Source: Gekko japonicus
Taxonomy: Eukaryota
Assembly: GCF_001447785.1 (NCBI RefSeq)
Contig: NW_015161961.1
Location: 1,059,833 to 1,123,832, forward strand
DNA length: 64,000 bases
Reading direction: 5' to 3'
Position 1 is the stretch's first letter; every line of letters starts with the position of its first letter. The translations under genes were made by a program, and so were the position numbers. A model generated the notes under the pieces. It was not told where the DNA came from, ran no database searches, and saw only the letters and a list, made by a program, of their open reading frames with translations. Shown here piece by piece: positions 2,333 through 62,947 of this stretch.

Positions 2333-3525
2333 AATCTAGAAAGGAACTCTTCCTCATGAGCAGTAAATTCATCAAGAATTTCTCCAGGCAAACCAATTGA
2401 TTTCATGCATGCTAACCAGGCCACAACAAATCATGCATGAAGAATTGCACAAAATTTAATGTAACCCCTGTTGTTCAGTGATAAATTGTTTGGGAGGAAT
2501 TCTACAATTCCCAAACAGCAATGAGAGTATGTGTACGTGTCCTTCCTGGAAAAGAGGCACACATGCACACACAAATAAAAAACAACCAGTCTAGAATTCT
2601 TAAGGAAATCCGTTTTTCCTCTAAGCATTCTCCATTGATATTGTAATTGATGACTCTGTTAGAGAATGAACTTAATATCTTGCTTTATGGACTATATTTA
2701 TTGCTACACACAATGGACTGTGCACACACACACATAGGCTCAAAGAACTGTACACTTTAAGTCACCTGTTGTGATGTAACACATAGAAGGTGCCTGCACA
2801 AGCCTTACACATGAATAAGGTTTCAGCTACACAGTTGCCAGCCTGGTGAAGAAGCACACACCTCCATTATTGTGAGCAGTAAGAAACAACAACTTGAGCA
2901 GAGACAGCCCCCATTGCTGAACCATTTGTGTTCACTTACGACACATCACTGCTTTGTTCCTGCATTGGTATTTCCTGCCAAATGGACATTTGGTTCACAA
3001 TGAGAATGGCCAGCTTCATCAACACTACAATGGAGCATCCTGACGCCAAGGTTTTCACACCTGCCCAGATGCCCTCCTTTGAGTAAGGTTTTAGATTACA
3101 ATATTGGCCACTCCTTATAGGTAACCTCCCACTCCTATAGGCAACCAACAGGATTGTTTTTGGGACGGACTAATAGGAAGGTGGGCCAGGAGGTTGGCAC
3201 AGCCACCACCCACCTCCTGGATCCCCTGATAAAATGAGACAACCAGTCACATGGTCTCTCTCTCTCTCTACTTGATCAACTAACATCTCCCCTGCAACAA
3301 CCCCTGTCTGCTTTAACCCCTCTTAAGACCCACTTGCTATCCACAACCCTTGCCTCTACTGCCCACACGTTCTGGCTGGTTCTGGTCGTGTGTGAATTTC
3401 CTTAGTTTTCTATTTCTTCCCATCCATTCTTCATTGGAACAACCAACCTGCAAGACAGATAAATATTGCCCATCATCACCCCCACCTGCTAATGCAAACG
3501 TGTTTATTTTAATACTGTATTTCTA

Positions 3526-3855
3526 NNNNNNNNNNNNNNNNNNNNNNNNNNNNNNNNNNNNNNNNNNNNNNNNNNNNNNNNNNNNNNNNNNNNNNNNNNN
3601 NNNNNNNNNNNNNNNNNNNNNNNNNNNNNNNNNNNNNNNNNNNNNNNNNNNNNNNNNNNNNNNNNNNNNNNNNNNNNNNNNNNNNNNNNNNNNNNNNNNN
3701 NNNNNNNNNNNNNNNNNNNNNNNNNNNNNNNNNNNNNNNNNNNNNNNNNNNNNNNNNNNNNNNNNNNNNNNNNNNNNNNNNNNNNNNNNNNNNNNNNNNN
3801 NNNNNNNNNNNNNNNNNNNNNNNNNNNNNNNNNNNNNNNNNNNNNNNNNNNNNNN
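3526..3855. other. Assembly gap
   Basis: Run of N. Confidence 1.
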
Positions 3856-4362
3856 TCACCCGGCAGGTTATTCCATTTAATATATTTTGAGTATGATCAA
3901 TAGACCACCTCAATCTCTGCTTCCGCTTCTGCCGTTGAGCAACCTATCGCCGGTGCGATGAGCTCTGCCATCATCTTTTTCAAGTTTTCTCCTTGCGATT
4001 CACCTATCCCCTGAAACCTGAGTATCTTGTTTGCTTTTTCCATTTGAAGATTCAGCAATCTGCATTCCTGTAAGTCCTGTCTCTGTTCTAGCAGACCAAC
4101 TTTCTTTTTAACTTTCTTGGTATTGTGCACTGTCTCTTTAAGTTTTTTGTCTGTTTGAATCGACTTTTTAACCAGCTCGGCAATCTGCTGCTGTTGCTTT
4201 GCTAGGCTCTGGTTGGATGTGGTCATCCGTTGGTTAATACCATCGAGTTATTGGCTTGAGCAGCTCTGATAGCATAGAGAACAGATCTCCTGTCTCCTCA
4301 ATCCTCGGACTTTGACCGCCCCGCCCAACTTGTCTGCCTAGTTTTCCCCGCGCGCCGGCCAT
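3856..4362 (-). pseudogene. Disrupted L1 ORF1p (coiled coil plus start of RRM-like region)
   Basis: ATG at 4362 (MAGARGKLGRQ..), frameshift near 4245, ORF 3897-4226 (..LQMEKANKILRFQGIGE..), in-frame stop, then SYSKYIKWNNLPG. Confidence 0.65.
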
Positions 4363-4939
4363 TTTCCACTTTGTTTACCCTAGAAGACCTCTTTCACTCT
4401 TCTCCGAAAAAGCGCTCAACTTTTTCTGCAAACGCAGCTAAGTCTCTTGCACACTATAACGATCTTCTTCTCTCCTCCCCCCCTCTGTTTTTTTAACACA
4501 GTTCAGTTTGTTTACGCCTGGGGATCTTCCCCGGCGCCGCTTTCAGGAGGGTGTGGGGGGGGAGACTCACTTTAAACTCACTTTTTGAACTTTTTCGCTT
4601 GACTCTTTCTTCGGTTCATTGACGGTCTACATCCAGACTCCTTGTAGCTTCGAAAGATCGCTGACCCTCACTGCTTGTCCCGGCCGGCATCAGCTGAGCT
4701 TGGTAAAAACTGAGCCTCTCAGGGGGCGGACCGATTGGGGCAAAGGAGCGCCTCAATTCTTCGGCATTACGCCGTCGAAGACGTCGCCCCTTCCAGTGCC
4801 CCCGGCTTGGAGCCTTTCACTAAGGCTCACCTGGGGGTGTCACTTGAGGTGGCACCCCTCCAGCCCCACTGGAGCGCGGAATGCCTCCCCAGCAGTAGGG
4901 GAGAGCGTCCGCCATCGCTGAGCCACAGACCGGAAGTCC
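3856..4939 (-). mobile_element. L1-clade LINE 5' end (5'UTR plus ORF1), rest hidden by the gap
   Basis: Minus strand starts GGACTTCCGG..GCGATGGCGG (L1-type 5' end, YY1-like), CpG-rich UTR, coiled-coil ORF1. Confidence 0.75.
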
Positions 4940-6034
4940 GTCTCTACTTTGATCTCTTGATCTGCAGTCAAAAGACCCACACGTTCTGGCTGGTTCTGGT
5001 CATGTGTGAACTCCCTTTAGTTTACATTTCTCCCCATCCATTCTTCATTGGAACAACCAAGCTGCAAGACAGATAAGTATTGCCCATCCTCACCCCCACC
5101 TGCCAATGCAACTGTGTTTATTTTAATACTGTAATTCTAAGGAACTTGTTTGAATGTGTGAGTGCACCAGTATTGTTTGTATGAGAGATATTTTCAAGTA
5201 AAAGACATTTATTTTAACAACAACAGCCTCGTTATCCTTCTCTGGTAACCCTTGGTGGGAACAGGACCTTGGAATAGTTGGCAAGGACCAATTTATAAAT
5301 TGCCAATTGCTGTAAATAAAGCAATTCGGCTAACAACTCCTTTCTAAATCAGTATGAAAAGCGTTTGCCCATCACAAGGACTAAGACAAGGATATAGAAT
5401 GCAAACTGTTATTGTGACAGAAATAATTTATCGTTGTGAATACTGAAGTGCAATGAATCTTTCATATTTCATGTTAAGGTTTTGCTAAAAAAAGTGTATA
5501 ATCCTGTTTGGGTTTGAGAGAATTAAAACTGTGTACTTCCCCCCCCCAATGACTCTCCACTGTGTCTTTTTTATCAGACTGAGAAGTCTCTTTAGACCTA
5601 TCATAGCCATCTCTTTTTTAAAAAACATTGAAAGCACTGAAGCACAGAGAAGAAGCATCTTGCCTCAGTTTATGTAAGGAATCTGTGAGAAATCTAAGAA
5701 TATAAAACAGATATTTTTATAGCCAGTTCCTAAATTTACCTCTGAATATAACATGCTGTTAGGCATCATTTTTACTTTGTTTAACCATGGGGCAGATCTC
5801 CCGCATAGATATCTGGGGAAATTTCACAAGCATTGAGTTGTTGCTTCTCTTTCAGAATTCATATCAGGATAAAAAAACTAAGCTTGTCTCAAGTGAGTCT
5901 GTTCCTGAAACACGGAAGGGGGGGGAACCCTAAAAGCAAACAAACAGGCCTTGCAGTGGAAGGACAAATCATTCAATGCTTCCACCAAGAAAGCAGCATC
6001 CCCAAGCCCATTCATATAAAAATGCCATGCATCA

Positions 6035-13694: not shown

Positions 13695-14130
13695 GGCCCC
13701 GGTCACACGGGAGGTTTTGGCCTGGAAGAAGGATGGATCGGGGGTGCAGCAAACGGGCGTGAGCACACTGCAACACCTGGGAATCGGCGCACACCAGTCC
13801 CTGATCTGTCCCTTCAGGCCTAAACCACGCAGTAAAAAAAGCCAACAAAAAGGTAGCACCAACCAGAAACAAGCGCGGCCATCGGATCGCCGGAGCGCCC
13901 ATCTTCAGGAGCATTCAAGGCTCCCAGCCGAACTGCGCATGCGCACACATGTGCAGCCGGCTGCCTCGCACTCCCTTCCGTGTCTTTCCCCCCGGCATCT
14001 GATCGTGCCAGGGAGCAACTGTGCGGCGGCTCATGGGATCTTTCTGATCCCGCCCCTGCGTGTCTCTTTTGGTGTGGCTTTAAAAAGCCGCACTTTGGCC
14101 GCATCAATTCCCCCCCATGTGGCAGGGGCC
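13695..14130. mobile_element. Non-autonomous DNA transposon, PIF/Harbinger-like, copy 1
   Basis: TIRs GGCCCCGGTCACACGGG / CCCATGTGGCAGGGGCC, 3-bp TSD AGC; second copy at 41171-41601. Confidence 0.7.
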
Positions 14131-14184
14131 AGCGGAAGGCATAGTCCCACCCCATACACTTCAGGACTGGGATACCTCTCACTA

Positions 14185-14574
14185 GGTGTTAGCAGGCAAG
14201 GCAGTGATAGCTCTGGGATGGAAAGATAATAGTAAATGGACAATAGATACCTGGACCACATTTGATTAGTTTAAATATTTGGTTGAATTTGTGCAGTCGG
14301 ACATCATCGAGAAGTTGTGCCAGAAGACCACATGGGAGGATAAAGCCGAAGTAATTAAAACTAGATGGAAGATCTATTTAAAGTGGATAACATCAGAAGG
14401 AAGACAGGACATTTGGTGGAAGATTCAGACTTTGTGCCCGTGGCTGTGAATGAAGGACCAACAAACAAGGGGTAGAGGGAGGGAGGGGGGAATTTAACGA
14501 TTATGTAAAGCAAGGAGACAAAAGATATGATGAAATATATAGAAAACTTACAAAAATAAACGTATTAAAAAAAA
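14185..14574 (+). mobile_element. 5'-truncated L1 3' end (ORF2 C-terminus, 3'UTR, polyA)
   Basis: 16-bp TSD GGGATACCTCTCACTA (14169-14184, 14575-14590); VLAGKAVIALGWK..KTRWKIYLKW resembles the L1 ORF2 end; AATAAA plus A tail. Confidence 0.8.
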
Positions 14575-15202
14575 GGGATACCTCTCACTAATATGTAATC
14601 CTAGTGATGACAGCTTGCAGGCAATCAAGAGAGCCCAGAGCCTTTCTCCTCCCCCTCAGGAACACTGTGTTCTCTCTATGCCCTTATTTAAAAACAAAAC
14701 AGAACACTGGCTGCCTTGTAAAACTGAAACCAATAGAGGGCAGAGACTGCAATAATGAAAGAAACCAGAACAAAACAAAAACAAAGCTTTTTTTAAAAAA
14801 ATGTAGGCTGTTTAGAAAGGGGAATTTGTTTCATTTCCATATTGTAAAAATTATGAAAAAAACAATTTTTCATAATTATTATATAAAAAAAGAAATGTGC
14901 AAATCCAGCTAGTAAGCCAGTTTGATCTCAATAAATTATTTTTTGGGGGGGGCTTTTACCCCAAGGAAGAGCAAGCCTCAGAGGCCATTGGGCCAGCTAG
15001 CTTGCCATGATGATCTCCAGTACTGCCATGCTGAATTCATTTGGGCACAAAAGCATCACCTCTGTATCAGGCCAAAGAAATGCCAAGAGACACAAAAAGC
15101 AGCTCCTTTATAGCTGAATAGAGCAGAAAAGTATTGGACACATGAAGCTGCCTTATATTGAGTCAGACCATTGGTCTATCAGGGTCAATATTGTTTACTC
15201 TG

Positions 15203-15620
15203 CCTTTACCTGCCTGATCTCATCAGATCACAGAAACTAAGCAGGGCAGACCCTGGCAAGTACTTGGATGGGAGACCTCCAAGGAATACCAGGGCTTGGA
15301 ACACAGAGGCAGACAATAGGAATCCACCTCTCTGAAATGTCCAAGCCCCACTAGGGGTCGCCAGAAGTCAACCATGACTTCCAGGCAGGGCTCTTTTTGT
15401 AGCAGGAACTCCTTTACATATTAGGCCACACCCCCTAATGTAGCCAATCCTCCAAGAGCTTACAGAGCTCTTCTTACAGGAGCTACTGTAAGCTCTTGGA
15501 GGATTGGCTACATTAGGGGGGTGTCGCTTAATATGCAAATGAGTACCTGCTACAAAAAGAGCCCTGCCAGGCACACGCGGAAGGACACACACACACACAA
15601 ATGCTCACTTTAAAAAAAAG
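15203..15620 (+). mobile_element. 5S rRNA-derived SINE
   Basis: CCTGATCTCATCAGATCACAGAAACTAAGCAGGG..AGTACTTGGATGGGAGACC..GGAATACC matches 5S rRNA; TSD TATTGTTTACTCTG (15189-15202, 15621-15634); (CA)n/A tail. Confidence 0.85.
15386..15566. mobile_element. Palindromic MITE (~180 bp)
   Basis: TIRs CAGGGCTCTTTTTGTAGCAGG / CCTGCTACAAAAAGAGCCCTG, hairpin over nearly its full length; second copy at 50935-51114. Confidence 0.85.
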
Positions 15621-16936
15621 TATTGTTTACTCTGATTGGCAGTGGCTTTCTAGGCTCTTTCAAGTGGTCTTTCACATCAATGGATCCTTTTTTAAAACTG
15701 AAGATGATGGGGATTGAACCTGGAACCTTCTGCATGCTTTACCACTGAGCCATGGCCCCTCCAGCAATCTGCACATCAGTCTTCACTGTAGTTTTGTGCA
15801 TAGGTATGCACATCGAAGCCCACTGGTATTCAGCATGTCTTAAATTCAATGGGTTTAAACTGGCACATTTTTAAGTGCTGGTTCACAGCTTTGACTCTTA
15901 CCATCTAAACCAGATGTGGGTTTAGAACTGATTTTTTAAAAATAAAATAAAATAAAGGCAATTAAACACAATTGGGAAGGTTCCAGGGCTTGCCTTTAAC
16001 TAATTGTGCAAAGGGGTGCATTTCCCTAACATGATAGCATATAAAATTTCCAAAGCCTTCCATTAAAAAAAAGTTATGTGGAGCTGTTTGTGGTGATATA
16101 TTGAACAGCAATTTGTCTCTCTATAGCTCCCCATTGAGATGATGTATCAAGCATCTGTCAGCTTTGCTCCGAGGGCAGCTGCAGCCGTCATGTTTTAACG
16201 CCAAATTATATTTGACATTTAATTCAATATCCAGAGGAGCATAATAGGAGGAAAAAAATCACTAACTGTAGGGGTGGTAAAGCAGCAGGATACTCCATTT
16301 GCAAGAGAGGATTCACCAGCCTGCCCCCGGGCTCTGCTAACTACAACAGCATTTAATGAGAAATGTGTTGAGCATAAGTGAGGTGGGAGTTCAAAGTGTT
16401 TTGGATGCGGGCAGATTTGGGGGGCTCACCTTCCCACCATTACTCCATGTCAGAAAGCTTATTCATGAGGGAAAGAAGGGGCAGGTTGGAATCCTAAACA
16501 AAAGCAGTAAAACTGCGGCATTAAAAAAAATCATTTCTTAAAATGTGGCTTGATATACACTCCTAATGTGAGGGCTTTTCATGTCATTACACGCAGACCC
16601 AGCATGGTGTAGTCATGGTTAGAATGTTAGATTAGGATCTGGGAGACCCAGGTTCAAATCCTTACTCTGCCATCGGAACTCACTGGGTGACATTGGGCCA
16701 GTCACTGTCTCTTACCCTAACCTAATTCGCAGGGTTGTCACTGTTAGAGAATGAACTTGATATTTTGCTTTCTGGACTTATATTTATTGCTACACACAAT
16801 GGACTGTGCACACACACACACATAGGCTCAGAGAACTGTACATTTTGGGACACCTGTTGTGATGCAACACATAGAAGGTGCCTGCACAAGCCTTACACGT
16901 GTAAATAAGGTTTCAGCTATACAGTTACCAGCCTGG

Positions 16937-17253
16937 AGAAGAAGGAGAAGAAGAAGAAGAAGAAGAAGAAGAAGAAGAAGAAGAAGAAGAAGAGATTGGA
17001 TTTATACCTCGCCCTTCACTACCGAAAGGTGTCTCAGAGCGGCTTACAAACTCCTTTCCCTTCCCCTCCCCACAACAGACACCCTGTGAGGTGGGTGGGG
17101 CTGAGAGAGCTCTTGACAGAAACTGCCCTTTTTCAAGAACAGCTCCTTATCAGAGCTACGGCTTGCCCAAGGCCATCCATCCAGGTGCAAGTGGAGGAGT
17201 GGGGAATCAAACCCGGTTCTCCCGCGCACTTAACCACTACACCAAACTGGCTC
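16937..17253 (-). mobile_element. Squam3-like SINE inserted in LTR copy B
   Basis: (AGA)n tail; absent at the equivalent site of copy A (~2845). Confidence 0.85.
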
Positions 17254-17415
17254 TGAAGAAGAACAAACCTCCATTATTGTGAGCAGTAAGAAACAGCAGC
17301 TTGAGCAGAGACAGCCCCCATTGCAGAATCATTTGTGGTCACGTATGACACATCACTGCTGTGTTCCTGCATTGGTATCTCCTGCCAAATGGACATTTGG
17401 TTTACAATAAGAATG

Positions 17416-17802
17416 CAGAACAACACAAGTGGACCCAGTAATTTGTAAAGTCAATGACACAGGAAAGAATTACTGTACAAGTTCAAACTGTTAAAGACAC
17501 ATTAACAAGTCATATAAATTTCTACTTGATTTTACTATCCGAATAAATTTGCTATCCGAATAAAATGCTGTAAAAATTTGGGAGCTGCTCTCAACCAGTT
17601 TAGATAACTTGTACCTTTAATGGAAACATGAAGTAAAGAATAGTACTACAAACTGATGGTTGAAAAAGACGTTCAGTCGAAACGTTCCATCTTTAACATC
17701 CTTGGCACTGTGACTGGGCTTCTGTCTTCGGATGAAGTTCACCTAGTAAAATCAAGTAGAAATTTATATGACTTGTTAATGTGTCTTTAACAGTTTGAAC
17801 TT
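17416..17802 (+). mobile_element. Non-coding Penelope-like element fragment (pLTR plus inverted partial copy)
   Basis: TSD TTACAATAAGAATG (17402-17415, 17801-17814), empty site in copy A (~2995), perfect 59-bp inverted repeat 17479-17537/17744-17802, hammerhead motif. Confidence 0.7.
17655..17691 (+). ncRNA. Putative minimal type I hammerhead ribozyme, U3-A8 core variant
   Basis: Stem I GAUGG/CCAUC; core UUGAAAA+A; stem II GAC-GUUCA-GUC; GAAA; palindromic AACGUU with GUU cleavage triplet. Confidence 0.6.
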
Positions 17803-20714
17803 ACAATAAGAATGGCCAGCTTCGTCAAGACTACAATGGAGCATCCTGAAGCCAAGGTTTTCACACCTGCCCAGATGCCCTTCTTTGAGTAAGGTATTAG
17901 ATTTCAATATTGGCCACTCCTTATAGGTAACCACCCCTCCCTACATGCAACCAATAGGACTGTTTTTGGGACGGACTAAAAGGTAGGTGGGTCCACAGGT
18001 TGGAACAGTTACCTCCCACCTAATGGACCCACTATAAAAGGTAAGGACCATTCACCTGGCCCTTCCTAGCTAGCAACCCCCGCAACAACCCCTGTCTGCT
18101 TTTTACTCCTCTTAAGTCCCACTTGCTATCCCCACACCCTTGTCTCTACTTTGATCTCTTGATCTGCAGTCAAGAGACCCACACGTTCTGGCTGGTTCTG
18201 GTCGTGTGTGAACTCCCTTTAGTTTACATTTCTCCCCATCCATTCTTCATTGGAACAACCAAGCTGCAAGACAGATAAGTATTGCCCATCATCACCCCAC
18301 CTGCTAATGCAACTATGCTTATTTTAATACTGTAATTCTAAGGAACTTGTTTGAATGTGTGAGTGTATCAGTATTGTTTGTATGAGATATATTTTCAAGT
18401 AAAAGACATTTATTTTAAGAACAACAGCCTCATTATCCTTCTCTGGTAACCCTTGATGGGAACAGGACTTTGGTATAGTTAGCAAGGACCCATTTATAAA
18501 TTGCCAATTGCTGTAAATAAAGCAATTCGGCTAACATCTTGAGGATAAAATGGAGGAGGGGAGAAGAAAGCAAGCTGCTTTATGTACATTTTGCCTCTCT
18601 CCCCAATGGAGACCCAGAGCAGGAGAATGATGTTGTAAGCCTCTTTTGAGGAGGTAAGCAGGGTATAAATATCTAAATAAATGTTGGCCTTCCCTCTTTC
18701 GTTCATGACAAGGAATTGTTTTTATTCCAGGCATTGTCATGAAAAGAAGAGATGCATCAGAGCTGCAGAAAGTAATTTATTAGAATTCATTGTAAGAAGC
18801 ATCTGTTATAATAAAATACATGGACTGTACTGACACACATTTTTACTTTGGTTTTCACACTGTGTCCCTCATTTTAAAACTTCTTGTGTGACAACCTTGG
18901 TTGCACATCAATTTCAATGGGCACTAGGCAGTCTTATATACTAGGGGAGCCACTAATATGGTAGACAGGTTAATCAGTCACAAAACTTGGAGGGTGACTT
19001 TGAGCAAGTCATTCTCTGTTCTGAAGCCATATCACGGGGTTCTTGAACAAATGAAGTGGTCTTCCACTGAATCAGACCATTGATCTACCAGTATTGTCTA
19101 CTCCTTCACTCCACCTATTACCAGATCCTTTCAACTGGAGACACTGGGGATTGAACCTAGGACCATCTTCCTGCAAAGCAGAAGCTCTGCCACTGAGTCA
19201 CAGATGAATTTTAGCAAGGATAAAAGGAGGAGGAATATGGATTTTGCTCTTTGGAGGAAGGTGGGACAAAAATGTCATAAATAATGTGAGTAGCTGTGAA
19301 TGTCCAGATGTGGCTTCAAAGAGATGAGTGCAATTTTAATGGCTTCCTCTTAACCACCAGAAACATCTAGAATGTTGCCTCCAAGCCCAAAGGTCTGTGT
19401 CTTTTAGTGTTTATGAATTAATAGCATTAAAAATGTTGAAGCAGCCTAAGAACAGCTAGTTTTACCTGCAGAAGTGTTTACCTATTTGTAATGAATGCCT
19501 TCCTTTAATAAAAGATAACTTCCTCCTCCTGGAAACTTCCCATGAGGTTCATAAAGGACTGAACTAGCTAGGGATACTGAAAACTTCATGGCAAACTTGA
19601 TTGGCAGGCAAATATACCACTTTTGACAGCTGCAATCGCTTGCGAGATGAACACCAGATCTCTGTCTCACAGCCATCTGATTTGAGCAGTATGCTGAAGA
19701 ATGTTATGGCTGAGCGGGAGCTGTGGCGGTGGAGTTTTATTTCTTTAGCCTTACATCTGCACGGTATTTGAAATTGATTTCCTCCCAGTGTTGTGGATGC
19801 TTGGGTCAGATGATTCTAGGGAATGGAAAAACTATGACATCAATGATGCTGTTGACATCGGCAGGCTGCTGAAGATGCAAATAGATTGGCATCCATTAAT
19901 GTTGATCAGATAGACATAATAACATTAAGTACTAAGACTTTCAAAATGCAGTGCTTATATATAACTATTTTTGGTCATTTTGGTTAATTTAAGCAATTGG
20001 TGGTGATACCTAGGGGGAGGGTTAAAGTGCCCTGTGTATGTGCAGGAAGTAGCCCATTGAGCAGGCTTGACTAGCTCTCACATAACTTAAATCACCCAAT
20101 GAACAATGAATTCCTTGCCTGCAGTGTGCAGAGAAGATGTCAAGCTAACTGGTGGGTGCTTATGTGCCCCATCTTGCCCTGCCTACAGCACTGTTTTGTC
20201 CCACCTCAGCATTTACAAGACGTTTTTAAGGCATGACAGTTTCCATTAAAGAATGAGACCTTTTTTTCAGAATAGCACCAAGTGGGGGACCAGCAAGGAC
20301 TTGCAGAGGGCATATCATTTTCTCCTCCTCCACTATTTTCTCTTTGGCTTTCCTGAAAGCCCCACATACCCTCTCCATTTTCCTGCTTCTTTGTTTCCTT
20401 CCCATCCACTGGCCAATCTACCTTTGTCTGTCCCCATGTCTTCAGTTTTCCCTCCTTCTGTGCCCCTGGCATCCAATACCTGGAAAAAACTATAGTCCAG
20501 TTGTGCAGTTCTGGTTGCCAGGTTGCCAGTTTTGCAGTAGGGAACCTGCAAGGATATGAAGGGGGCACTTCATTTTCCCAGGTGTCCCATTCCCCACACT
20601 ACCTCCTCTTTCCCTCCTCCTGGACACCCTCATATCCTCAACTTTCCCGGCTTCCTTTTCGTCTTCCTACCCATCAACCAACCAACCATTTATCTGCCCC
20701 TGCTTTCAGCTATA

Positions 20715-20942
20715 TTTATTGTTGATTTACTTCATTTATTCCCCACTTTTCTCCACAATGGGGACCCAAAGCAGTATACATAATTTCCCGCTTTTTCATT
20801 TTATCCTCACAACATCCATATGAGGTAGGCTAGACTGAGTGTGTGTGACTGGTCTTCCAGTGAGCTTCCACAGTGCAGTGGGGATTCGAACCTGGTGTCC
20901 CAGATCCTAGTCTGAAACTGTAAGCATTATACTGTACTGGCT
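20715..20942 (-). mobile_element. tRNA SINE (older Squam3/MIR-like)
   Basis: GGGATTCGAACC (reverse B box), ATCCTCACAAC body, TTTA tail; relatives at ~21190, 24270, 46527 and 51815. Confidence 0.65.
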
Positions 20943-21534
20943 ATTGTAGGGTGGCTGCCATTGAACAGCAGCAAGCAGTGGGGTCTGGGTGAGTCATGCA
21001 ACTTGGGTAGTAATAAGTTGCCCTGTGGTTACTGCTGGGCTAACCCTGGTGAGCCCTCCTCCAAAAACTAAAACAGCCCTAGAAACAACCCTTTCACTTA
21101 CATAAGCCAAGGCTTGAAGGCTGTTAATACTATTGCAGTCACCTAACAAGAGCCAACCAACCTTTAACCTGCCCCTCTTCTTCAGCAATATTTATTATTT
21201 ATTTTCTTCATTTATTTTCTTCATTTATAACCCACCTTTCTCCACAATGGAGACTCACAGCAGCCTTTCCATTTGATCCTCACAACTCTGTGAGGTATGT
21301 TGGCTGATAATGTGTAACTAGCTCATGGTAACACAGTGAGCTTCCATGGCAGAGTAGGGAGTTGAACCTTGGTCTCTCAGGTTTATTGTACAAAATTTAT
21401 ACCCCACCTTTCCCTCCTCATTAGAGCCACCAAGGTGGCTAATAAATTGAAACATCTTGTATCTAATAGTGAACTGTGGGCCCATCTGCAGATTCTTAAA
21501 TCTGTGGATTGGGTCCATTTGCACAGAAGAAAGA

Positions 21535-22111
21535 TGTACTGGCTTGCAGGCTCCAAGTATTAGGTACCAGAAGTAAGGCAAAGCAATGTTGTTCTGTCCA
21601 AGGTCAAGAGTCCAGAAGTCAGGCAAAGCAGAGTCATTCAGTAAGAGGTCCAGAAGTCAGGCAAGGCAGAATCAATGGCTTAGCTTCTATCATACACATT
21701 GCATCCATGCCTAAAGCCTTTCTTGGCTGGCTTTATAGCCCCATGCCTAAGGGACATGCTTGCAACCAGTTACACAGCAGCAATCCTGCAACTACTCATC
21801 TTCGTTATCAACAAGCAGCTGACATCAGGCCAGGAGATGCATACTTCGCCATCTTGTCTGTAGCTCTTTTCTCAGCCTTCATCTGTGGTGCTCTAAGGGT
21901 GTAGGTGATACTGGTGGGCTGGGAATGGCCAATTGAGGTTCACATGCTGGAGGGTGTCAGTGGCTCTGCAGCAGCTGTTGGCTGTGAATCTTGAGAAGTC
22001 TGCAGTTCATTTTCCTGCTGGTCAGCTTCAGTTAACTCAAGGCTGGCTACACAGGGCACCTCTTCTCCTGAGGAGTCCTTGCTATTGCTGACCCCTTGCT
22101 GGCACATGACA
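21535..22111 (-). mobile_element. Probable Gypsy-type LTR remnant
   Basis: TGT...TGACA ends, internal repeat GTCCAGAAGTCAGGCAA x2, minus-strand TATAAA; no clean TSD. Confidence 0.35.
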
Positions 22112-32660: not shown

Positions 32661-34055
32661 TTCAATTTCTTGTTTTTGAACAGGGTGATCTATAAATTTG
32701 AATTATAAATAAATAAATAAAATTAATTCAGGAATTAGACCATGTGCAATTTCCTGGAAGTTCTTTCCCAGTTATTTGCACATTTCTTCCTCAACATCAC
32801 CAATGTGTACCAGCACATTGATAAAACACGGTGTTCTAAAAAGCAGTCTTGATGTTACAGGATATCTGACTGCAACAAGGTTCTTTTTGTGCAGTCTGAT
32901 AGATGTATACATGGATTCTTGTGCATTGATCAAGCAACACACACACACACACACACACACGACTCTTGATGCAATCATATGTGCAATAGCATCAACATTA
33001 GTTTTTGCTTGCGAGAAGGGCAAGCTATAAATATGAATGAATGAATGAATGAATGCTTTATTGATAATGTAAGAGGGACGGAGAACACATTTAGGAACTG
33101 AAAGCCATGGACAATTGTATGCGCTCTATACTGTGCAACATTTAGGAATTTAAAAACAGCATTGGTGGATTTCTAAGGCATCAGTTCCACTTGGGAAGCA
33201 AGACCAAATCTGGGTAACAAATGAGAAGTTTTGGAAGCAACATTTCTAAATTAAACTGATAGATGCACAGGCCTGCTTGAGAAACATGTTCTCTGAGCAC
33301 ATGTTAAGGTGCAGTTTACCATACATCAATGAAAAAGTAATGACAATTCCAGTACCAGAAACTGGGGCATTTAAATGCTCTTCCCACCATTTGGGATACT
33401 GTCTGAAGGTTATTCAGCCTTGCAAGGTGGCATTTTCTTGTCTGAACGTTTAAAGTTTTCAATTATTCTTTAATATGGGGTTCAAGCCAGACTGGAAGAA
33501 GGCTTGCCAAGTGCTGGCAAGCTCCCTTGCCTCCATGTCCCTGCTCTCCCACCGATAGCCTAGCTCAGCCTGGCAATCCTAATTAGAAGGCACATGCTCA
33601 TTGCCACATTGTGAGATGGTTCTGGTTGCTCACAATGAGAAAAAGGTATTTTGTGCATGCTTAGAGACACATATCATTGTTACTTCATGGTCCAGGAGCT
33701 ACACTCTGGCATTGGAAACAATTCCAGAAGACTTCATCGTATTCGATGGCAGGGGCACCACCCACCAAAGCCCTGGACCTGAGGATGTTTGACAGACGGC
33801 TGGACAGGTTCCATCCACAGTCAAGGGACACGGAGTGAACCATGCTCATAAGTAACAGTGTAGCCCCATAGCCAATTATGAAATGTACATTCTGAGCTGC
33901 CATTGTTGGACCCTTTTTCATCAGCGTGGGCACCCACCTTACCCTCTTTACCCTCAGGTTTTAGGAGAATATATTTATTTATTTTTCAGATTTTTACCCC
34001 GCCTTCCCGGCCGAAGCTGGCTCAGGGCAGCTCACAGCACTTAAAAACAAAAAAA

Positions 34056-36465
34056 GAAAAAAGCTCCAGGTCCAGATGGGTTTACGGCAGAATTCTACCA
34101 AAAATGCGAAGAGGAATTAACACCACTATATAAAGACCTGGTACAAAATATTGTGAAAACAGCAAAAACTCCACAAACATGGAATGAGGCACTAATAACT
34201 CTGATTCATAAACAGAATACAGAAGGATCTGAAATTAAAAACTACAGGCCAATCTCACTTCTGAATGTAGATTATAAAATCTACGCAACAATACTAGCTG
34301 ACAGAGTTAAGAAGGTAATGTCCCAGATAATCCATCAAGATCAATCAGGCTTTCTCCCAAAAAGACAAATTAAGCAAAATATAAGAACCATAATCGACAT
34401 TATAGAATACTATGAATACCAGCCAGGCAAAAAACTGGCACTGATGTTTCTTGATGCGGAGAAAGCCTTCGATAACGTCAACTGGGAGTTTATGAAACAA
34501 AAACTAGCTTTGTGGGACTGTGGGAACAACTTTAAGAACATGGTAGAAGCTGTATATAAAGAACAATGGGCAAAAGTAATAATCAATGGAGAATTTACTA
34601 GAAAGATCCCTATAGAAAAAGGAACGAGACAAGGATGCCCATTATCCCCACTGTTATTTATCTTCGGACTAGAGACATTAACAGAAATAGTAAGAAAGAC
34701 AGAGGAAGTTAAAGGTCTAAAGATTAAAGGAGAACAATTCAAATTGCAAGCGTTCGCGGACGATCTGGTCTTCATTTTGGAAGATCCAAACCCATCGATA
34801 AAAAACCTACTTAAAATAATACGGGACTATGGTGCGGTAGCGGGCCTCAAAATAAATATAAATAAGACAAAAATCTTAACAAAGAATTGCAACATGGAAG
34901 AAATAAAAGAACTACAGGAAAGCACAAGTGTAGAAATTGTCAAGAAAATTAAATATCTAGGTATAAGCATCTCAAATAACAACAACAACTTATACGAAAA
35001 CAATTATAAGGTAATGCTAGAAGAGACTCAAAAGGATCTATTAAGATGGCAAGACCTACAAATATCGTTCATGGGTAGAATATCAACAATAAAAATGAAC
35101 GTCTTGCCAAAAATATTATACTTAGCTCAATGTATTCCGATCCTAAAAAACAATAAATTTTTCGAAGAGTTAAACAAGATGACAAGAAAGTTTATATGGC
35201 AGGGGAAAAAAGCTAGAATTAAATTAAAAATTCTGAAAGACAAAAAAACCAAAGGGGGACTCAGTCTCCCGGACTGGAATATGTACTATCAAGCTGCGGC
35301 ATTGGGCTGGATCCGGGACTGGGTCCTACTGGAAGACAAAAGATTACTTAAGCTAGAAGGACATGATCTGCACATGGGCTGGCACGCCTATGTGTGGTAC
35401 GAGAAAGACAAAGTGCATAAAAATTTCTCGAATCATATAATAAGAGGTCCACTAATGAAGATATGGAATAAAATAAAAGAACAACATTATAAGAAAACAC
35501 CAAAATGGGTGGCACCCCTGGAGGCCTTCGTAATCCCAACTTTAACGAATGAGCATAACACAAGAACCTACCAAACTTTCTTGGACGAAGATAACCGATT
35601 GAAATCTTGGCAAGAACTACAAGCATTGAGTATAAAGCTAACAATATGGGAAAGGAACCAACTAAGCTCAAGATTCACAAAAGATAAAAAAAAAGACTTT
35701 TATAATACAGAAACGCAACTAGATAAGATATGGTTGAAAGGGAAAGATAAATTGATCCAAAAAATCTATAACTTCCTATTAGATGAAGAATTAAAAGAGG
35801 AGTTGAAAAAACCGACAGCGATTAGTTGGGAAAAAGATCTTGGTCGAAACATAGAGGGAGCGGAATGGATAAAAACCTGGAAATCAATTAAGCTATTGAG
35901 AGCAACCTCCTATAAAGAAAACATAATAAAAATGATACACAGGTGGCACTGGACCCCAGATAGATTGCAAAAATGGTATACAAATGTTTCGGGATCCTGT
36001 TGGAGATGCAAACACAATGTTGGAACGTATTTCCACATATGGTGGAAATGCGAAAAAATACAAAAATTCTGGAAAACTGTTAAACAGATGTTAAAAGAAA
36101 TCATTGGGAAAGATTTAGCGCTGATACCAGAGCTCTTTCTATTGAATGTTACACCTGACGGGCTAAAATTTAATGAGAAATGTATTGTGGTATATATTAT
36201 TACAATGTCCAGAATTTCTATTGCTAAAAATTGGAAATCTGATAAACTACCGAGTAAGGATGATCTGACCAACATCCTCTATGAAGTAATCGAGATGGAC
36301 AAGCTCAATATGTTTTTAGCGGGCAAAACAGAAGAACACTTTAACTTGAAATGGCAAAAAGCCATAAAATGGTACGAAGAAAGAGGTTGACTTAACCCCC
36401 AAATGTATGAAATTGTAACTTGATTATATGTAAAGTTGGAAAACTTAAAATAAATTTATTTTAAA
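34056..36465 (+). mobile_element. 5'-truncated L1-clade LINE, young
   Basis: 13-bp TSD AAAAACAAAAAAA (34043-34055, 36466-36478) at a TT/AAAA site; short 3'UTR with AATAAA. Confidence 0.9.
34057..36390 (+). CDS. L1 ORF2p fragment: Z motif, RT and C-terminal Cys-rich domain; endonuclease domain missing
   Basis: Uninterrupted frame KAPGPDGF..NYRPISLLNVDYKI..LDAEKAFD..GTRQGCPLSPLLF..AFADDL..YLGI..CWRC..HIWWKC; no native start codon. Confidence 0.9.
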   Translation, partial: KKAPGPDGFTAEFYQKCEEELTPLYKDLVQNIVKTAKTPQTWNEALITLIHKQNTEGSEIKNYRPISLLNVDYKIYATILADRVKKVMSQIIHQDQSGFLPKRQIKQNIRTIIDIIEYYEYQPGKKLALMFLDAEKAFDNVNWEFMKQKLALWDCGNNFKNMVEAVYKEQWAKVIINGEFTRKIPIEKGTRQGCPLSPLLFIFGLETLTEIVRKTEEVKGLKIKGEQFKLQAFADDLVFILEDPNPSIKNLLKIIRDYGAVAGLKININKTKILTKNCNMEEIKELQESTSVEIVKKIKYLGISISNNNNNLYENNYKVMLEETQKDLLRWQDLQISFMGRISTIKMNVLPKILYLAQCIPILKNNKFFEELNKMTRKFIWQGKKARIKLKILKDKKTKGGLSLPDWNMYYQAAALGWIRDWVLLEDKRLLKLEGHDLHMGWHAYVWYEKDKVHKNFSNHIIRGPLMKIWNKIKEQHYKKTPKWVAPLEAFVIPTLTNEHNTRTYQTFLDEDNRLKSWQELQALSIKLTIWERNQLSSRFTKDKKKDFYNTETQLDKIWLKGKDKLIQKIYNFLLDEELKEELKKPTAISWEKDLGRNIEGAEWIKTWKSIKLLRATSYKENIIKMIHRWHWTPDRLQKWYTNVSGSCWRCKHNVGTYFHIWWKCEKIQKFWKTVKQMLKEIIGKDLALIPELFLLNVTPDGLKFNEKCIVVYIITMSRISIAKNWKSDKLPSKDDLTNILYEVIEMDKLNMFLAGKTEEHFNLKWQKAIKWYEERG

Positions 36466-50750: not shown

Positions 50751-51268
50751 TGTTAAGTATGCAACTCAACAACAAAGTAAGTAACAAGTGAATCAGCTTA
50801 TTTGAGAACGAGAACTTCCAAAGATCACACAGCAACAGACGACACACCACAAAACAACAGTGGAGCACAGATCCTTTCAAACTCTCCCGGGCTGGGGTAG
50901 CCACGCCCTTACACAGTTAACATCCAATGATTGGCAGGGCTCTTTTTGTAGCAGGAACTCCTTTGCATATTAGGCGACACACCTCTAATGTAGCCAGTCC
51001 GCCAAGAGTTTACAGTAGCCCCTGTAAGAAGAGCTCTGTAAACTCTTGGAGGATTGGCTACATTAGGGGTGTGTCGCCTAATATGCAAAGGAGTTCCTGC
51101 TACAAAAAGAGCCCCAATCACAATGCATGGATAACGTCCAATCATTAGTCTTCCCTCCAGCACAGACTCTTACATTTCATTGGTTACCGTACATGCTTCA
51201 GCCAATGGTGTTGTTAATCCGGCTGAGGTTTCAAGCTTTACATTACATGTCAATGGCAAGACACAACA
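50751..51268 (-). mobile_element. Solo LTR (Gypsy-like) in the L2
   Basis: TGTT...AACA termini, TSD ATTAC/GTTAC; splits the L2 motif DYCN-NAL. Confidence 0.75.
50935..51114. mobile_element. Palindromic MITE, copy 2
   Basis: Near-identical to 15386-15566. Confidence 0.85.
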
Positions 51269-59869: not shown

Positions 59870-62660
59870 TCACTGGAACAAAGTTGGATGGACCCGCCGG
59901 GGAACTGGTGGGTGGCGGTGACATAGGTGATATCTCGGGGCTTCCTGTGATGGCTGACTACAGCGTTCCACCTGCTCGCTGGCTATTGGTTGCTCTCTGG
60001 CTATTGGTTGCTCACTGGCCGTAGGCAGGTCCCTCTCGGCTGCTGGTTCCAGGGGGCTTGGCAGCTCCTCCTTGCTGTTCTCTGGGAGTGTTGTGGGCAA
60101 ACTCAGTTCTGCTGGAAGGAGCCAGCGGTGGAGCTGATCAATGTGCCTCCAGAGCAGCTGGCCATCTGTGGACACCTCATATGAGAGGGGCCCTGTTACT
60201 CTGATAACCATGGCAGGAATCCATGCTGGGACTCTGGTGAAATTCTGGGCATAGACAGGGTTGCCGGGGAAGAAACAGGCCACTGTTTGACTCTCACAAG
60301 CCGGACTGTATTCCGGAGCACGGTCTGGGTGTAGAGGGTCTAGCCAGGTTGTGAGGCGTCGGCCCATGAGGAGTTCCACAGGGCTGTGGCTGGTGGTGGC
60401 ATTCGGGGTTGTCCAGTGGCTGAAGAGGAAGGCCACTAGACAGAGGTCCCAGTATCCTTGGACGATCCAGCAGAGGGACTCCTTCATTGTCCTCACCATC
60501 CACTCTGCCTGTCCATTGGTTGTGGGGTGGAAGGGAGCTGAGCGGATGTGCTGGATGGCATAGTAGCCCATGCACTCCTGGAACTTGGCCGAGGTGAAGG
60601 CCATCCCATTGTCCATTACGACAGTGTCGGGTATGCCATGGGTGCTAAAGATCCACAAGAGAGCATGAATGGCAGCCAGGGATGAGGTGGAGGGGACCGG
60701 TACCACTTCAAGCCATCTGGTATATGAGTCTACCACAATGAAGAAGATCTGTCCCTGGAAGGGTCCTCCAAAGTTGAGATGAAGCCAGACCCATGGCTTG
60801 TGGGAGGACTCCTACTGACGCACCGGGGCCCTGGGGGGATCCGGCCGGGACTCTTGGCATGGCTGGCAGCACTTTACACAGTCCTCTATCTCACTGTCCA
60901 TGCCTGGCCACAAGACGTAGCTGCGGGCCAGCACCTTTATCCACACAATTCCTAGGTGTGTTTTGTGTAGTGCGGCTGGTACTTGCTGGCGCAACAGTGC
61001 TGGCACCACCACCCTGCTCCCCCACAACAGGAAACCCTTGTGCTCAGACAGCTCATCCTGGCAGGAAGAGAATGCAGCAAATTCAGGGCCCACACGGCTG
61101 GTGGGCCATCCCCTCCCCACCCAGTCCAAAACAAGGGAGAGGACACGGTCTCTGGCAGTGCAGCATGCCACATCAGAGACCAGTAGGGGATGGTTGGGGA
61201 GGGCCTCAAGGAGCAGGATGTGATGCACTGGGGCCGGGTCCAGGTCGCAGGCAGGGAGTGGCAGCCTGCTTAGGGTGTCAGCATGGCCCATGGCCTTCCC
61301 GGGGTGGTAGATGAGTGAGTACTGGTAACCGGACAGGAAAATCGACCAGTGCAGCACCCTGGGGGACAGCATCTGTGGTGTCTGGTGGTCCGGGGCCAGC
61401 ATGCCCAGCAGTGGTTTGTGGTCAGTCGCAATGGTGAAGGGCCGCTGATAGAGGTAATCATGAAATTTCTTGACTCCCGCCACAATTACCAGAGCCTCTT
61501 TGTCAATCTGAGTGTAATTCTTCTCTGCTGAGGACAAAGTATGGGAATAATACACCACAGGAACCTCTCTGCCGTCAGGAAGCTAGTGGCCCAGGACCAT
61601 GCCGACCCCTTAAGGGGAAGCATCGCAAGCGAGGATGATGGGTAAAGTCTCATAGAAGTGCACCAGGACGGTGTTTGAAGTGAGCAGCTTCTTGACGGCC
61701 TGGAATGCATTGGCCTGTTGCTGGCCCCAGACCTAAGGGGCTCTTTTGTTGAGGAGCCGGTGCATCATCAAAGAAGGGCTGTACCCTGGGAATCCCTTTA
61801 AGGAGAGAGTCCATTAGATTCTGAAAAATTCCTGGGGCCACGCTAACTCCGAACTGCAGCCTCCGCTCCCGGAACACACCCCTGTGCATCACAATTGTCT
61901 GCGCTTCCACCATCACATCATCGACCAGGAGCTGTTGGTACGCCTGAGCTATGTCCAGCTTACCAAAGATCTTGGCGCCCGCCAGAGTGGCCAGGACATG
62001 GCTGACCACTGGGACCACATATGTGTGGTTTTGTAGAGCCTTATTTATTGCACATTTATAGTCCACGCAGATGCAGACATCCCAGTTGGGCTTTACTGGA
62101 GTCACAATTGGGGTTTCCCATGCGGCATGGGGTACGGGTTCCAAAACTCCTTGGACCACCAGCCTATCCAACTCCGCATCAATCTTAGGTTTAAGAGTGA
62201 ATGGTGCACGCCTGGCCTTCAGCCTTATGGGCCAAACTGCCAGGTTTAGTTGTAGAAAGACTGGGGGTCCGGTGTACCAGCCGAGCGTCCCATCAAATAC
62301 TGCCAGGAACTCATTGCACACTGCCTGGAAGTCTTTGGTGGCCACGTGGTGCACCCCAGTTACCCTGAACCCTAGTGGCGTGAACGATGCAAGTCCTATG
62401 AGGCTTGTATGACTGCCCCTCACTACCAGCAGGTCCAAACGTTCATCAAATTGCCTGTACTGCACTCGGTACCTTCCCTCCCCCCGGATGGACACCTCAT
62501 TTTTGGAAAAGTCCTGTAGGGTGAAACTGACAGGTCGCAGGGGAGGACCCCTATTTGGGCAGAGCCTGTGGAACGTGTCCTCTGAGATAATCGAGATGGA
62601 GGACCTGGTATCTAGCTCCATCAAGCAGGGCTTCCCTCGAGCAAGACGGTGACTATAATT
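59870..62660 (-). pseudogene. Gypsy pol (protease, RT, RNase H, integrase) with frameshifts, stops and an RT deletion
   Basis: ELDTRSSISIIS; LDIAQAYQQL; LQFGVSVAPGIFQ..FFDD; EKNYTQIDKEAL..TDHKPL; H..H..C..C; VDSYTRW..DNG..NGQAE. Confidence 0.9.
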
Positions 62661-62947
62661 TTGTTGGGGGTCTCCTGGGGCAAGTTTAATACCTGTTGCT
62701 GCTGGACAGAGGTGGTGTGTAGCTCCGCGGAGTGCATCGATGTTGGGGTAGCCAATGGTCGCCTCTCACTTCCCTTCAAGCAGCATGCATGGGTGATGTG
62801 ACCAACCTTCCCACAGGTCTAACACGTGGCATATCTGAAACGGCAGGATCTCCACTTGTGAGGGTCCCCACAGCTGGTGCATGGTGTTGCTGGTGTGCAT
62901 TTAGTGGTGTGGAGTGGAATGGAGTGGCGGGGTTTGCAGCGTCCTGG

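What the first reader, a model, noticed from the sequence alone, without database searches (positions are those of the whole stretch)
17655..17691. Minimal hammerhead ribozyme with a compensatory U3-A8 core
Seen: GATGG-TTGAAAA-A-GAC GTTCA GTC-GAAA-CG-TT-CCATC, with stems I and II perfectly paired. The core reads UUGAAAA instead of CUGANGA. Established: C3 and G8 form a tertiary Watson-Crick pair, and minimal PLE hammerheads have a vestigial palindromic stem III thought to work as a dimer; here AACGUU is palindromic. Inference: two changes at exactly the paired positions suggest a selected, functional variant that CUGANGA-based searches would miss. Predicted cleavage is 3' of 17686.
Basis: partly seen in the sequence, partly recalled or inferred. 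Interest (0 to 1): 0.7.

Follow-up and report, generated by a model that had tools for sequence, protein, structure and literature searches.

The report
Spliced Neptune retroelement end with hammerhead
The self-cutting-RNA (hammerhead) motif is really there and its swapped U-A core pair is the normal form for the young jumping-gene family that left this short insert, but that swap is already published for related elements and this lone, promoterless copy is likely silent, so it is a new example of a known kind.

Summary
Observation confirmed base by base. The motif lies in a 385-nt insertion with a 14-nt target duplication: an intronless retrocopy of the pseudo-LTR of a young Neptune-clade Penelope-like element (PLE), plus an inverted arm. 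U3-A8 is the family consensus (93 of 93 matches), and the 27-nt core is invariant across six subfamily representatives whose 3' flank is 55% invariant, with one compensatory stem I change: the motif is under selection. But U3-A8 is not new: Cervera and De la Pena 2014 list a Schistosoma PLE motif with the same core, and Perreault 2011 reports natural U3-A8. It is also the likely ancestral state of a wide clade in which position 3 drifts without compensation at least four times. Efficient cutting is not supported: 63 of 64 genomic copies and the RNA-seq depth run across the predicted site. Less familiar: two GT-AG introns in a vertebrate pLTR, the second ending exactly at stem I, and origin of this minimal form by loss of a long palindrome-capped stem III. 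The scan noted the long-stem form earlier on other DNA of this genome. Verdict: new member of a known kind; this copy likely inert.

The parts
17402..17415 (.). Target-site duplication, left copy (14 nt; 2 nt at the inner edge are shared with the element end)
   Evidence: single copy at the empty paralogous site 2995-3008 (12 of 14 identical)
17416..17537 (-). Inverted arm: 3' end of the pseudo-LTR including the tail extension; carries no hammerhead
   Evidence: inverted repeat I8, 59 nt, 100%; same letters follow the hammerhead in other copies
17538..17546 (+). Short duplication of the start of exon 1 at the inversion junction
   Evidence: read directly
17547..17603 (+). pLTR exon 1, starting at about the inferred transcription start; the TATA-like box seen about 35 nt upstream in full pLTRs is absent from this copy
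   Evidence: RNA depth fades out at 17546-17571
17604..17654 (+). pLTR exon 2 (51 nt); intron 1 (100 nt in L034, GT-AG) is missing before it, intron 2 (148 nt in L034, GT-AG) after it
   Evidence: intron 1 joint in 38 reads of X18
17655..17691 (+). Minimal type I hammerhead motif, U3-A8 core; its first base is the first base after the intron 2 acceptor
17660..17666 (+). Core U3-A9 (U3 = 17660, A8 = 17665)
   Evidence: 93 of 93 family matches
17682..17686 (+). Vestigial helix III palindrome (15.1-16.1) and U17; predicted cut after 17686
   Evidence: layout as in PMC4209133
17692..17800 (+). Rest of pLTR exon 3, ending about 60 nt short of the tail; in a full element ORF1 starts about 230 nt after the core
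17801..17814 (.). Target-site duplication, right copy

Best explanation
The motif is the minimal hammerhead of the pseudo-LTR of a young Neptune-clade Penelope-like retrotransposon, with U3-A8 as the family's normal core, and this copy is an intronless, promoterless retrocopy that is likely silent; in the active element the hammerhead is predicted to cut only weakly, as a dimer or with help from the element's protein. Shown: the insertion and its target duplication, the link to RT-GIY-YIG ORFs, the two introns and their absence here, the family-wide U3-A8, the invariance of the core, and that most copied or sequenced RNA is uncut. Inferred: a pLTR promoter makes an RNA that is spliced twice; the element's RT copied such an RNA, uncut, into this site with an inverted arm; U3-A8 replaces C3-G8 as the tertiary pair while A8 keeps the 2'-OH (established hammerhead chemistry, recalled); the 4-nt palindrome supplies helix III between two copies; stem I is 7 bp and covers the acceptor AG when intron 2 is retained and 5 bp after splicing; cutting is a rare or late step, not one needed for insertion.
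For: Insertion with TSD and empty paralog. 76 DNA matches in the genome; the same pLTR follows RT/GIY-YIG ORFs in L044, L047, L051 (Pfam GIY-YIG E 4e-06) and flanks a two-ORF element in L169 (RVT_1 and GIY-YIG); Cys-rich linker as in Neptune-1_Ac (compared by eye). 93 of 93 U3/A7/A8. Core 27 of 27 columns invariant in six representatives versus 83 of 150 in the 3' flank, 37 of 56 and 39 of 51 in exons 1 and 2; stem I shows one two-sided change (U-A to C-G) and one G-C to G-U. N17 is never G in 41 of 41 distinct motifs although the descriptor left it free. 24 of 64 copies lack intron 2 and keep the whole motif. Window-private base 17594 is in 0 of 52, 0 of 2 and 0 of 4 reads. PAc of Anolis: hammerhead cuts only with protein, uncut RNA is the main template, no read ends at the site (PMC11167929). 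Min-HHRs cut weakly as dimers and not as monomers (PMC4209133).
Against: No cleavage is shown at all: no read ends pile up at 17686/17687 and depth is flat across the site in X18 (98.0 then 98.8), so 'weak cutter' and 'no cutter' are not told apart. The nearest-neighbour energy of the double hammerhead (-16.7) is worse than two monomers (-19.8) and a misfolded dimer (-23.1 kcal/mol; tertiary contacts ignored). In sister families the 3-8 pair is broken in 11 of 37 long-stem motifs and only 4 of 37 have 3 or more stem I pairs next to the core, which a strictly catalytic motif should not tolerate. Libraries look unstranded and come from other individuals, which may lack this insertion, so silence of this copy is not proven.
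Confidence: 0.72

Rival explanations
1. The motif descends from a hammerhead but is now kept as a non-cutting structure: a binding or dimerisation site for the element's protein, or a splice-acceptor regulator.
For: Uncompensated C3, G3 or A3 opposite A8 arose at least four times against one compensated change to C3-G8, including in families with open ORFs; proximal stem I mostly absent in long-stem families; RNA and copies uncut; hammerhead mutants do not affect PAc insertion in vitro.
Against: All broken pairs lie in long-stem families, none in the 13 minimal-form loci; the minimal clade has a full stem I with a compensatory change; G8 occurs only with C3; H17 holds in 41 of 41. U3-A8 hammerheads are reported active in vitro (PMC3088659).
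Confidence: 0.2
2. One reading: a selected, efficiently cutting ribozyme variant that processes the element's RNA at 17686.
For: Invariant core; one of 64 copies (L072) starts within 2 nt of the predicted site.
Against: 63 of 64 copies extend at least 10 nt upstream across the site; 7 copies end within about 25 nt upstream of it, so one at the site is unremarkable; no dip or read ends in RNA-seq; 3-bp stem II, U17 and an unfavourable dimer energy.
Confidence: 0.06
3. The letters are conserved because they encode a peptide from the AUG in stem I, or only because the family is young.
For: A 44-codon frame opens from the AUG at 17656 in the window, and a similar frame of about the same length in L169.
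Against: AUG is ACG in three of six representatives and the frame stops after 13 codons in L083; third codon positions are as invariant as the others; the real ORF1 starts about 230 nt further on; flanks have diverged while the core has not.
Confidence: 0.02

Closest known systems
U3-A8 min-HHR of Schistosoma mansoni Cercyon PLEs (Cervera and De la Pena 2014, PMC4209133; row Schistosoma_mansoni(4) of the supplementary alignment)
   Same: Same core letters at 3-9 plus the extra A, same ACGU palindrome and U17, in a pLTR; about 1,300 U3-A8 hits were reported there.
   Different: Here a vertebrate Neptune element (all nine vertebrate rows in that alignment are C3-G8); stem II is 3 bp instead of 6; stem I is 5-7 bp instead of 3.
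Penelope of Drosophila virilis (PMC4209133)
   Same: A spliceosomal intron in the pLTR ends at the 5' end of helix I, giving spliced and unspliced hammerheads.
   Different: Two introns rather than one; Neptune clade; U3-A8 core; no bulged helix II.
PAc / Poseidon_Ac of Anolis carolinensis (Frangieh et al. 2024, PMC11167929)
   Same: Lizard PLE with pLTR hammerhead and tail; uncut RNA is the main template; no RNA-seq ends at the site.
   Different: Poseidon clade, C3-G8, ORF starts inside the hammerhead; here the hammerhead is in the 5' leader of a two-ORF element with a predicted -1 frameshift.
Neptune-1_Ac (alignment rows in the supplement of PMC8557442)
   Same: Cys-rich linker before GIY-YIG and similar flanking motifs, compared by eye.
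   Different: No hammerhead or intron description for it was found in what I read.
Natural U3-A8 hammerheads (Perreault et al. 2011, PMC3088659)
   Same: Same covariation, stated to be active in vitro (passages).
   Different: Those passages describe full three-stem ribozymes; this one has no helix III as a monomer.

Membership tests
Minimal type I hammerhead of metazoan PLEs | Core U4 G5 A6 N7 A9, G12 A13 A14, A15.1, U16.1, H17 with a Watson-Crick 3-8 pair | tested here: met
   U3-A8 in 93 of 93
Minimal type I hammerhead of metazoan PLEs | Extra nucleotide between 9 and 10.1, G10.1-C11.1, palindromic 15.2-16.2 | tested here: met
   A17667; G17668-C17678; C17683/G17684 (features listed)
Minimal type I hammerhead of metazoan PLEs | Stems I and II with covariation | tested here: met
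   Stem I: one two-sided change and one wobble among six representatives; stem II invariant in them, so it gives no covariation. Stem II is 3 bp, shorter than in most published rows.
Minimal type I hammerhead of metazoan PLEs | Located in the pLTR of a PLE | tested here: met
Minimal type I hammerhead of metazoan PLEs | Self-cleavage after N17 (weak, as dimer) | not testable with these tools
   Indirect only: no read ends or dip at the site; 63 of 64 copies span it
Rfam hammerhead models | Match to a curated covariance model | tested here: not met
   No hammerhead family at E<=10 in 14000-22000
EN+ Penelope-like element, Neptune clade | RT followed by C-terminal GIY-YIG | tested here: met
   In linked copies, not in the window: RVT_1 2.9e-09 and GIY-YIG 3.6e-06 for L169
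EN+ Penelope-like element, Neptune clade | Cys-rich Zn-finger-like linker between RT and EN | tested here: met
   CxxCxxC before GIY-YIG; feature defined in PMC8557442; it is shared with Nematis
EN+ Penelope-like element, Neptune clade | Phylogenetic placement with named Neptune sequences | not tested
   Only compared by eye with Neptune-1_Ac rows; the tree holds genome copies only
EN+ Penelope-like element, Neptune clade | pLTR, inverted 5' arm, tail on one end, target duplication | tested here: met
   layout described
Non-LTR retrozyme (tandem units with a hammerhead) | Head-to-tail tandem units each holding a hammerhead | tested here: not met
   Single copy in the window and in contig C2251; one short two-unit tandem seen elsewhere (L029)

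The most novel reading that the evidence does not exclude
In lizard Neptune elements the hammerhead is a splicing-gated switch: stem I pairs across the acceptor of the second pLTR intron, so folding and splicing compete, and the family offers a natural series from a long stem III capped by a kissing palindrome (with stem I pairing onto the acceptor AG-G and a drifting 3-8 pair) to an obligate-dimer minimal ribozyme that regained a full stem I. That would tie the two oldest puzzles of Penelope-like elements, intron retention and near-silent hammerheads, to one RNA fold, testable in a vertebrate.
Probability: 0.2. Interest if true: 0.62.

Novelty: new member of a known kind. Interest (0 to 1): 0.3.

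Why it matters
As a ribozyme variant it adds little: the same core is in print for flatworm PLEs. It matters modestly because (1) a large vertebrate Neptune clade uses U3-A8 as its default (46 of 60 motif-bearing loci), which C3-G8 descriptors and Rfam miss; (2) the family is young, transcribed and present in both spliced and intron-retaining genomic copies, which makes it a handy system for the open questions of why PLEs keep introns and what their weak hammerheads do; (3) the tree shows how a minimal, dimer-type hammerhead can arise from a long stem III.

Tried and rejected
Rfam scan: no hammerhead model hit. Coding constraint from the AUG in stem I: rejected. Idea that U3 was chosen to weaken a core-to-loop II hairpin: that hairpin is worth only -0.4 kcal/mol against -9.9 for the hammerhead fold; the C3 version was not computed; not pursued. 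A C3-G8 sister of this exact layout: 0 matches. 5' ends at the cut site: 1 of 64, not beyond chance. No indexed holder was on record as RNA; three raw RNA runs of the same species label were laid instead. 27 of 87 ORF-linked loci gave no motif within 1,500 nt (truncation, N gaps or distant families) and were left out of the tree; one more (L131) lacked stem III and was left out of the 41 distinct motifs. The column tally was mis-indexed and redone. Lunse et al. on dimeric PLE hammerheads is not held, so it may already describe such variants; supplementary file 1 of PMC4209133 and the supplements of the bioRxiv preprint could not be seen. Searches for introns in vertebrate Neptune pLTRs gave no direct description, but the library lacks subscription journals and Repbase, and Fig. 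1 of PMC8557442 marks conserved introns in a picture I could not see. Look-up of earlier scan notes by sequence found nothing.

Full report
Observation. The 37 letters at 17655-17691 are as described: stem I of five pairs, core U3-A9 at 17660-17666, one extra A, a 3-bp stem II with a 5-nt loop, G12-A15.1, the palindrome ACGU and U17 at 17686. Alone they fold into stems I and II (z -1.8). A descriptor that allows C3-G8 or U3-A8 hits once in the window and 0.03 times per shuffled window (200 shuffles). Rfam gives no hammerhead hit at E<=10.

What it sits in. Alignment with a paralogous stretch near 2850-3200 shows a 385-nt insertion (17416-17800) between two copies of a 14-nt target. Its left 122 nt are the reverse complement of the family's 3' end, tail included. 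The own-genome search gave 76 matches (40 of 121 candidates scored). Many broke at exactly 17655. Those copies hold two extra segments with GT...AG ends, 100 and 148 nt in L034: introns. The window copy lacks both, and lacks the TATA-like box that lies about 35 nt before exon 1 in full copies. The acceptor of intron 2 is directly before the first base of stem I. The same pLTR follows RT + GIY-YIG ORFs and in L169 flanks a complete element: pLTR, a 245-aa ORF1 starting about 230 nt after the core, a T-run slippery site where a -1 shift would enter the 785-aa RT-EN frame (predicted), and a second pLTR. The Cys-rich linker and its neighbours resemble Neptune-1_Ac (by eye). The host is a squamate by its SINEs (recalled resemblance).

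Is U3-A8 the consensus? Yes. A pattern with positions 3, 7 and 8 left free gave 93 matches, all U3/A7/A8; the C3-G8 version gave none. RNA reads show no listed variant at 3 or 8. Across six subfamily representatives (78-99% protein identity to the query) all 27 core columns are invariant, against 83 of 150 in the 3' flank and 36 of 148 in intron 2; stem I changes once on both sides (U-A to C-G) and once to G-U. So the motif is under purifying selection in the replicating lineage.

Is it a compensatory innovation? I fetched 87 of the 101 ORF matches with 1,500 nt of flank; 60 carry the motif. States at 3:8 are U-A 46, C-G 2, C.A 5, G.A 3, A.A 4 loci (28, 2, 4, 3, 4 among 41 distinct motifs). 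On the quick, midpoint-rooted tree (the careful search did not finish) U3-A8 is spread throughout and is the likely ancestral state; C3-G8 arose once, uncompensated changes four or five times. The descriptor fixed positions 4-6, 9 and 12-15 and the end of stem III, so their invariance is circular; positions 3, 7, 8 and 17 were free, and N17 is never G (41 of 41). The minimal form is one nested clade (13 loci, support 88). All others have a 5-8 bp stem III capped by a loop with a palindrome or near-palindrome. In these only 4 of 37 have three or more stem I pairs next to the core, whereas 24 of the 33 with an acceptor within 16 nt can pair at least two bases after N17 with the acceptor's G-G (a weak criterion with no control). 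The minimal clade most simply lost the stem III hairpin, leaving ACGU, and gained a complete stem I (inference). The 3-8 pair is therefore favoured but not obligatory in this clade; it is unbroken in the minimal clade.

Does it cut? Of 64 genomic copies found from the 3' side (70 rows less 6 duplicates), 24 lack intron 2, 31 retain it, 9 are truncated, gapped or altered. 63 extend at least 10 nt upstream across the site; one starts within 2 nt of it. Intronless copies must come from sense RNA that was spliced and not cut. In run X18, intron 1 is skipped in 38 reads and has zero depth, intron 2 is seen both skipped (19 reads) and retained at its 3' end (42 reads); depth is 98.0 before and 98.8 after the site, and no ends pile up there in any of the three raw runs. 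Caveats: unstranded-looking libraries, low depth in X17 and X19, cut ends are poorly captured, and junction reads could partly come from intronless genomic copies. Base 17594, private to the window copy, appears in 0 of 58 reads, and no read runs into the window's flank. Folding: stem I is 7 bp and includes the acceptor AG with the intron (-11.4) and 5 bp without (-9.9); the double hammerhead is less stable than two monomers or a misfolded dimer in both contexts.

Mechanism. Most likely a weak, dimer- or protein-dependent hammerhead as in other animal PLEs: min-HHRs did not cut as monomers and cut weakly as dimers (PMC4209133), and the Anolis Poseidon hammerhead cuts only with the element's protein and is not needed for insertion (PMC11167929). 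This particular copy has no promoter, no partner nearby (one match in its contig) and no reads, so it is likely inert.

Comparison with what is known. PMC4209133 (parts 1-2 of 4 of the main text, part 2 of 3 of supplementary file 2) describes U3-A8 min-HHRs in Cercyon PLEs, about 1,300 hits, and lists a row with the same core, palindrome and U17; it also reports an intron ending at helix I in D. virilis. PMC3088659 (passages) reports natural U3-A8 and cites in-vitro activity. PMC8557442 (passages, supplement rows) defines the Neptune linker and mentions ORF1 frameshifts and conserved introns. PMC11167929: parts 1-2 of 4. PMC3846280, PMC6765202, PMC7151607 and bioRxiv 10.64898/2026.07.22.740005: passages only. 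Lunse et al.: not seen. Not found in my searches: U3-A8 in a vertebrate PLE, two introns in a vertebrate pLTR, or the long-to-minimal series; the library is incomplete. Earlier scan notes on this genome describe the long-stem form; I read them after the tree was made.

Verdict. A real, selected, family-wide U3-A8 minimal hammerhead motif of a known kind in a spliced Neptune pLTR retrocopy; cutting unproven and at best weak; interest 0.3.

Noticed in passing
L089, L092, L095-L165 (flanks 300-1100 nt after the ORF): Sister Neptune families carry the same core with a 5-8 bp stem III, a loop palindrome and mostly no stem I next to the core; 4-12 exon bases lie between the acceptor and position 3. 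Position 3 is C, G or A opposite A8 in 11 of 37 distinct long-stem motifs.
   Followed up: partly
L169 (- strand 7218 to 3728): Complete two-ORF element between pLTRs with a predicted -1 frameshift at a T-run between a 245-aa ORF1 and the RT-EN frame.
   Followed up: partly
L100: ORF followed by a pLTR that lacks both introns, whereas most ORF-linked pLTRs retain them.
   Followed up: no
L078, L075, L019, L032: Five copies have their 5' end or inversion junction 10-18 nt upstream of the predicted cut, at the short palindromes around G12; in L078 the fold-back is centred there.
   Followed up: partly
L002 and L136: A different, longer-stem-II hammerhead repeat of the C3-G8 type; the L002 insertion landed inside its core with a target duplication.
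   Followed up: no
L034, L036, L037, L039 (upstream of the pLTR): The 3' UTR of the youngest subfamily holds a variable array of roughly 120-nt tandem units; some copies also have a 16-nt duplication starting at the 3' arm of stem I.
   Followed up: no
window 16811-18539 versus 2723-5338: The target is itself a multi-copy repeat, transcribed in two of three raw runs, with reads showing the empty site.
   Followed up: partly
window 15199-15295; 15381-15571; 50932-51114: A 5S rRNA-derived piece (Rfam 54 bits) and two copies of a short fold-back element.
   Followed up: no
window 34045-36390 (+); 59870-62765 (-): A 781-aa LINE-type RT frame, and a broken LTR-retroelement pol in three frames (RT, RNase H, integrase).
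   Followed up: no
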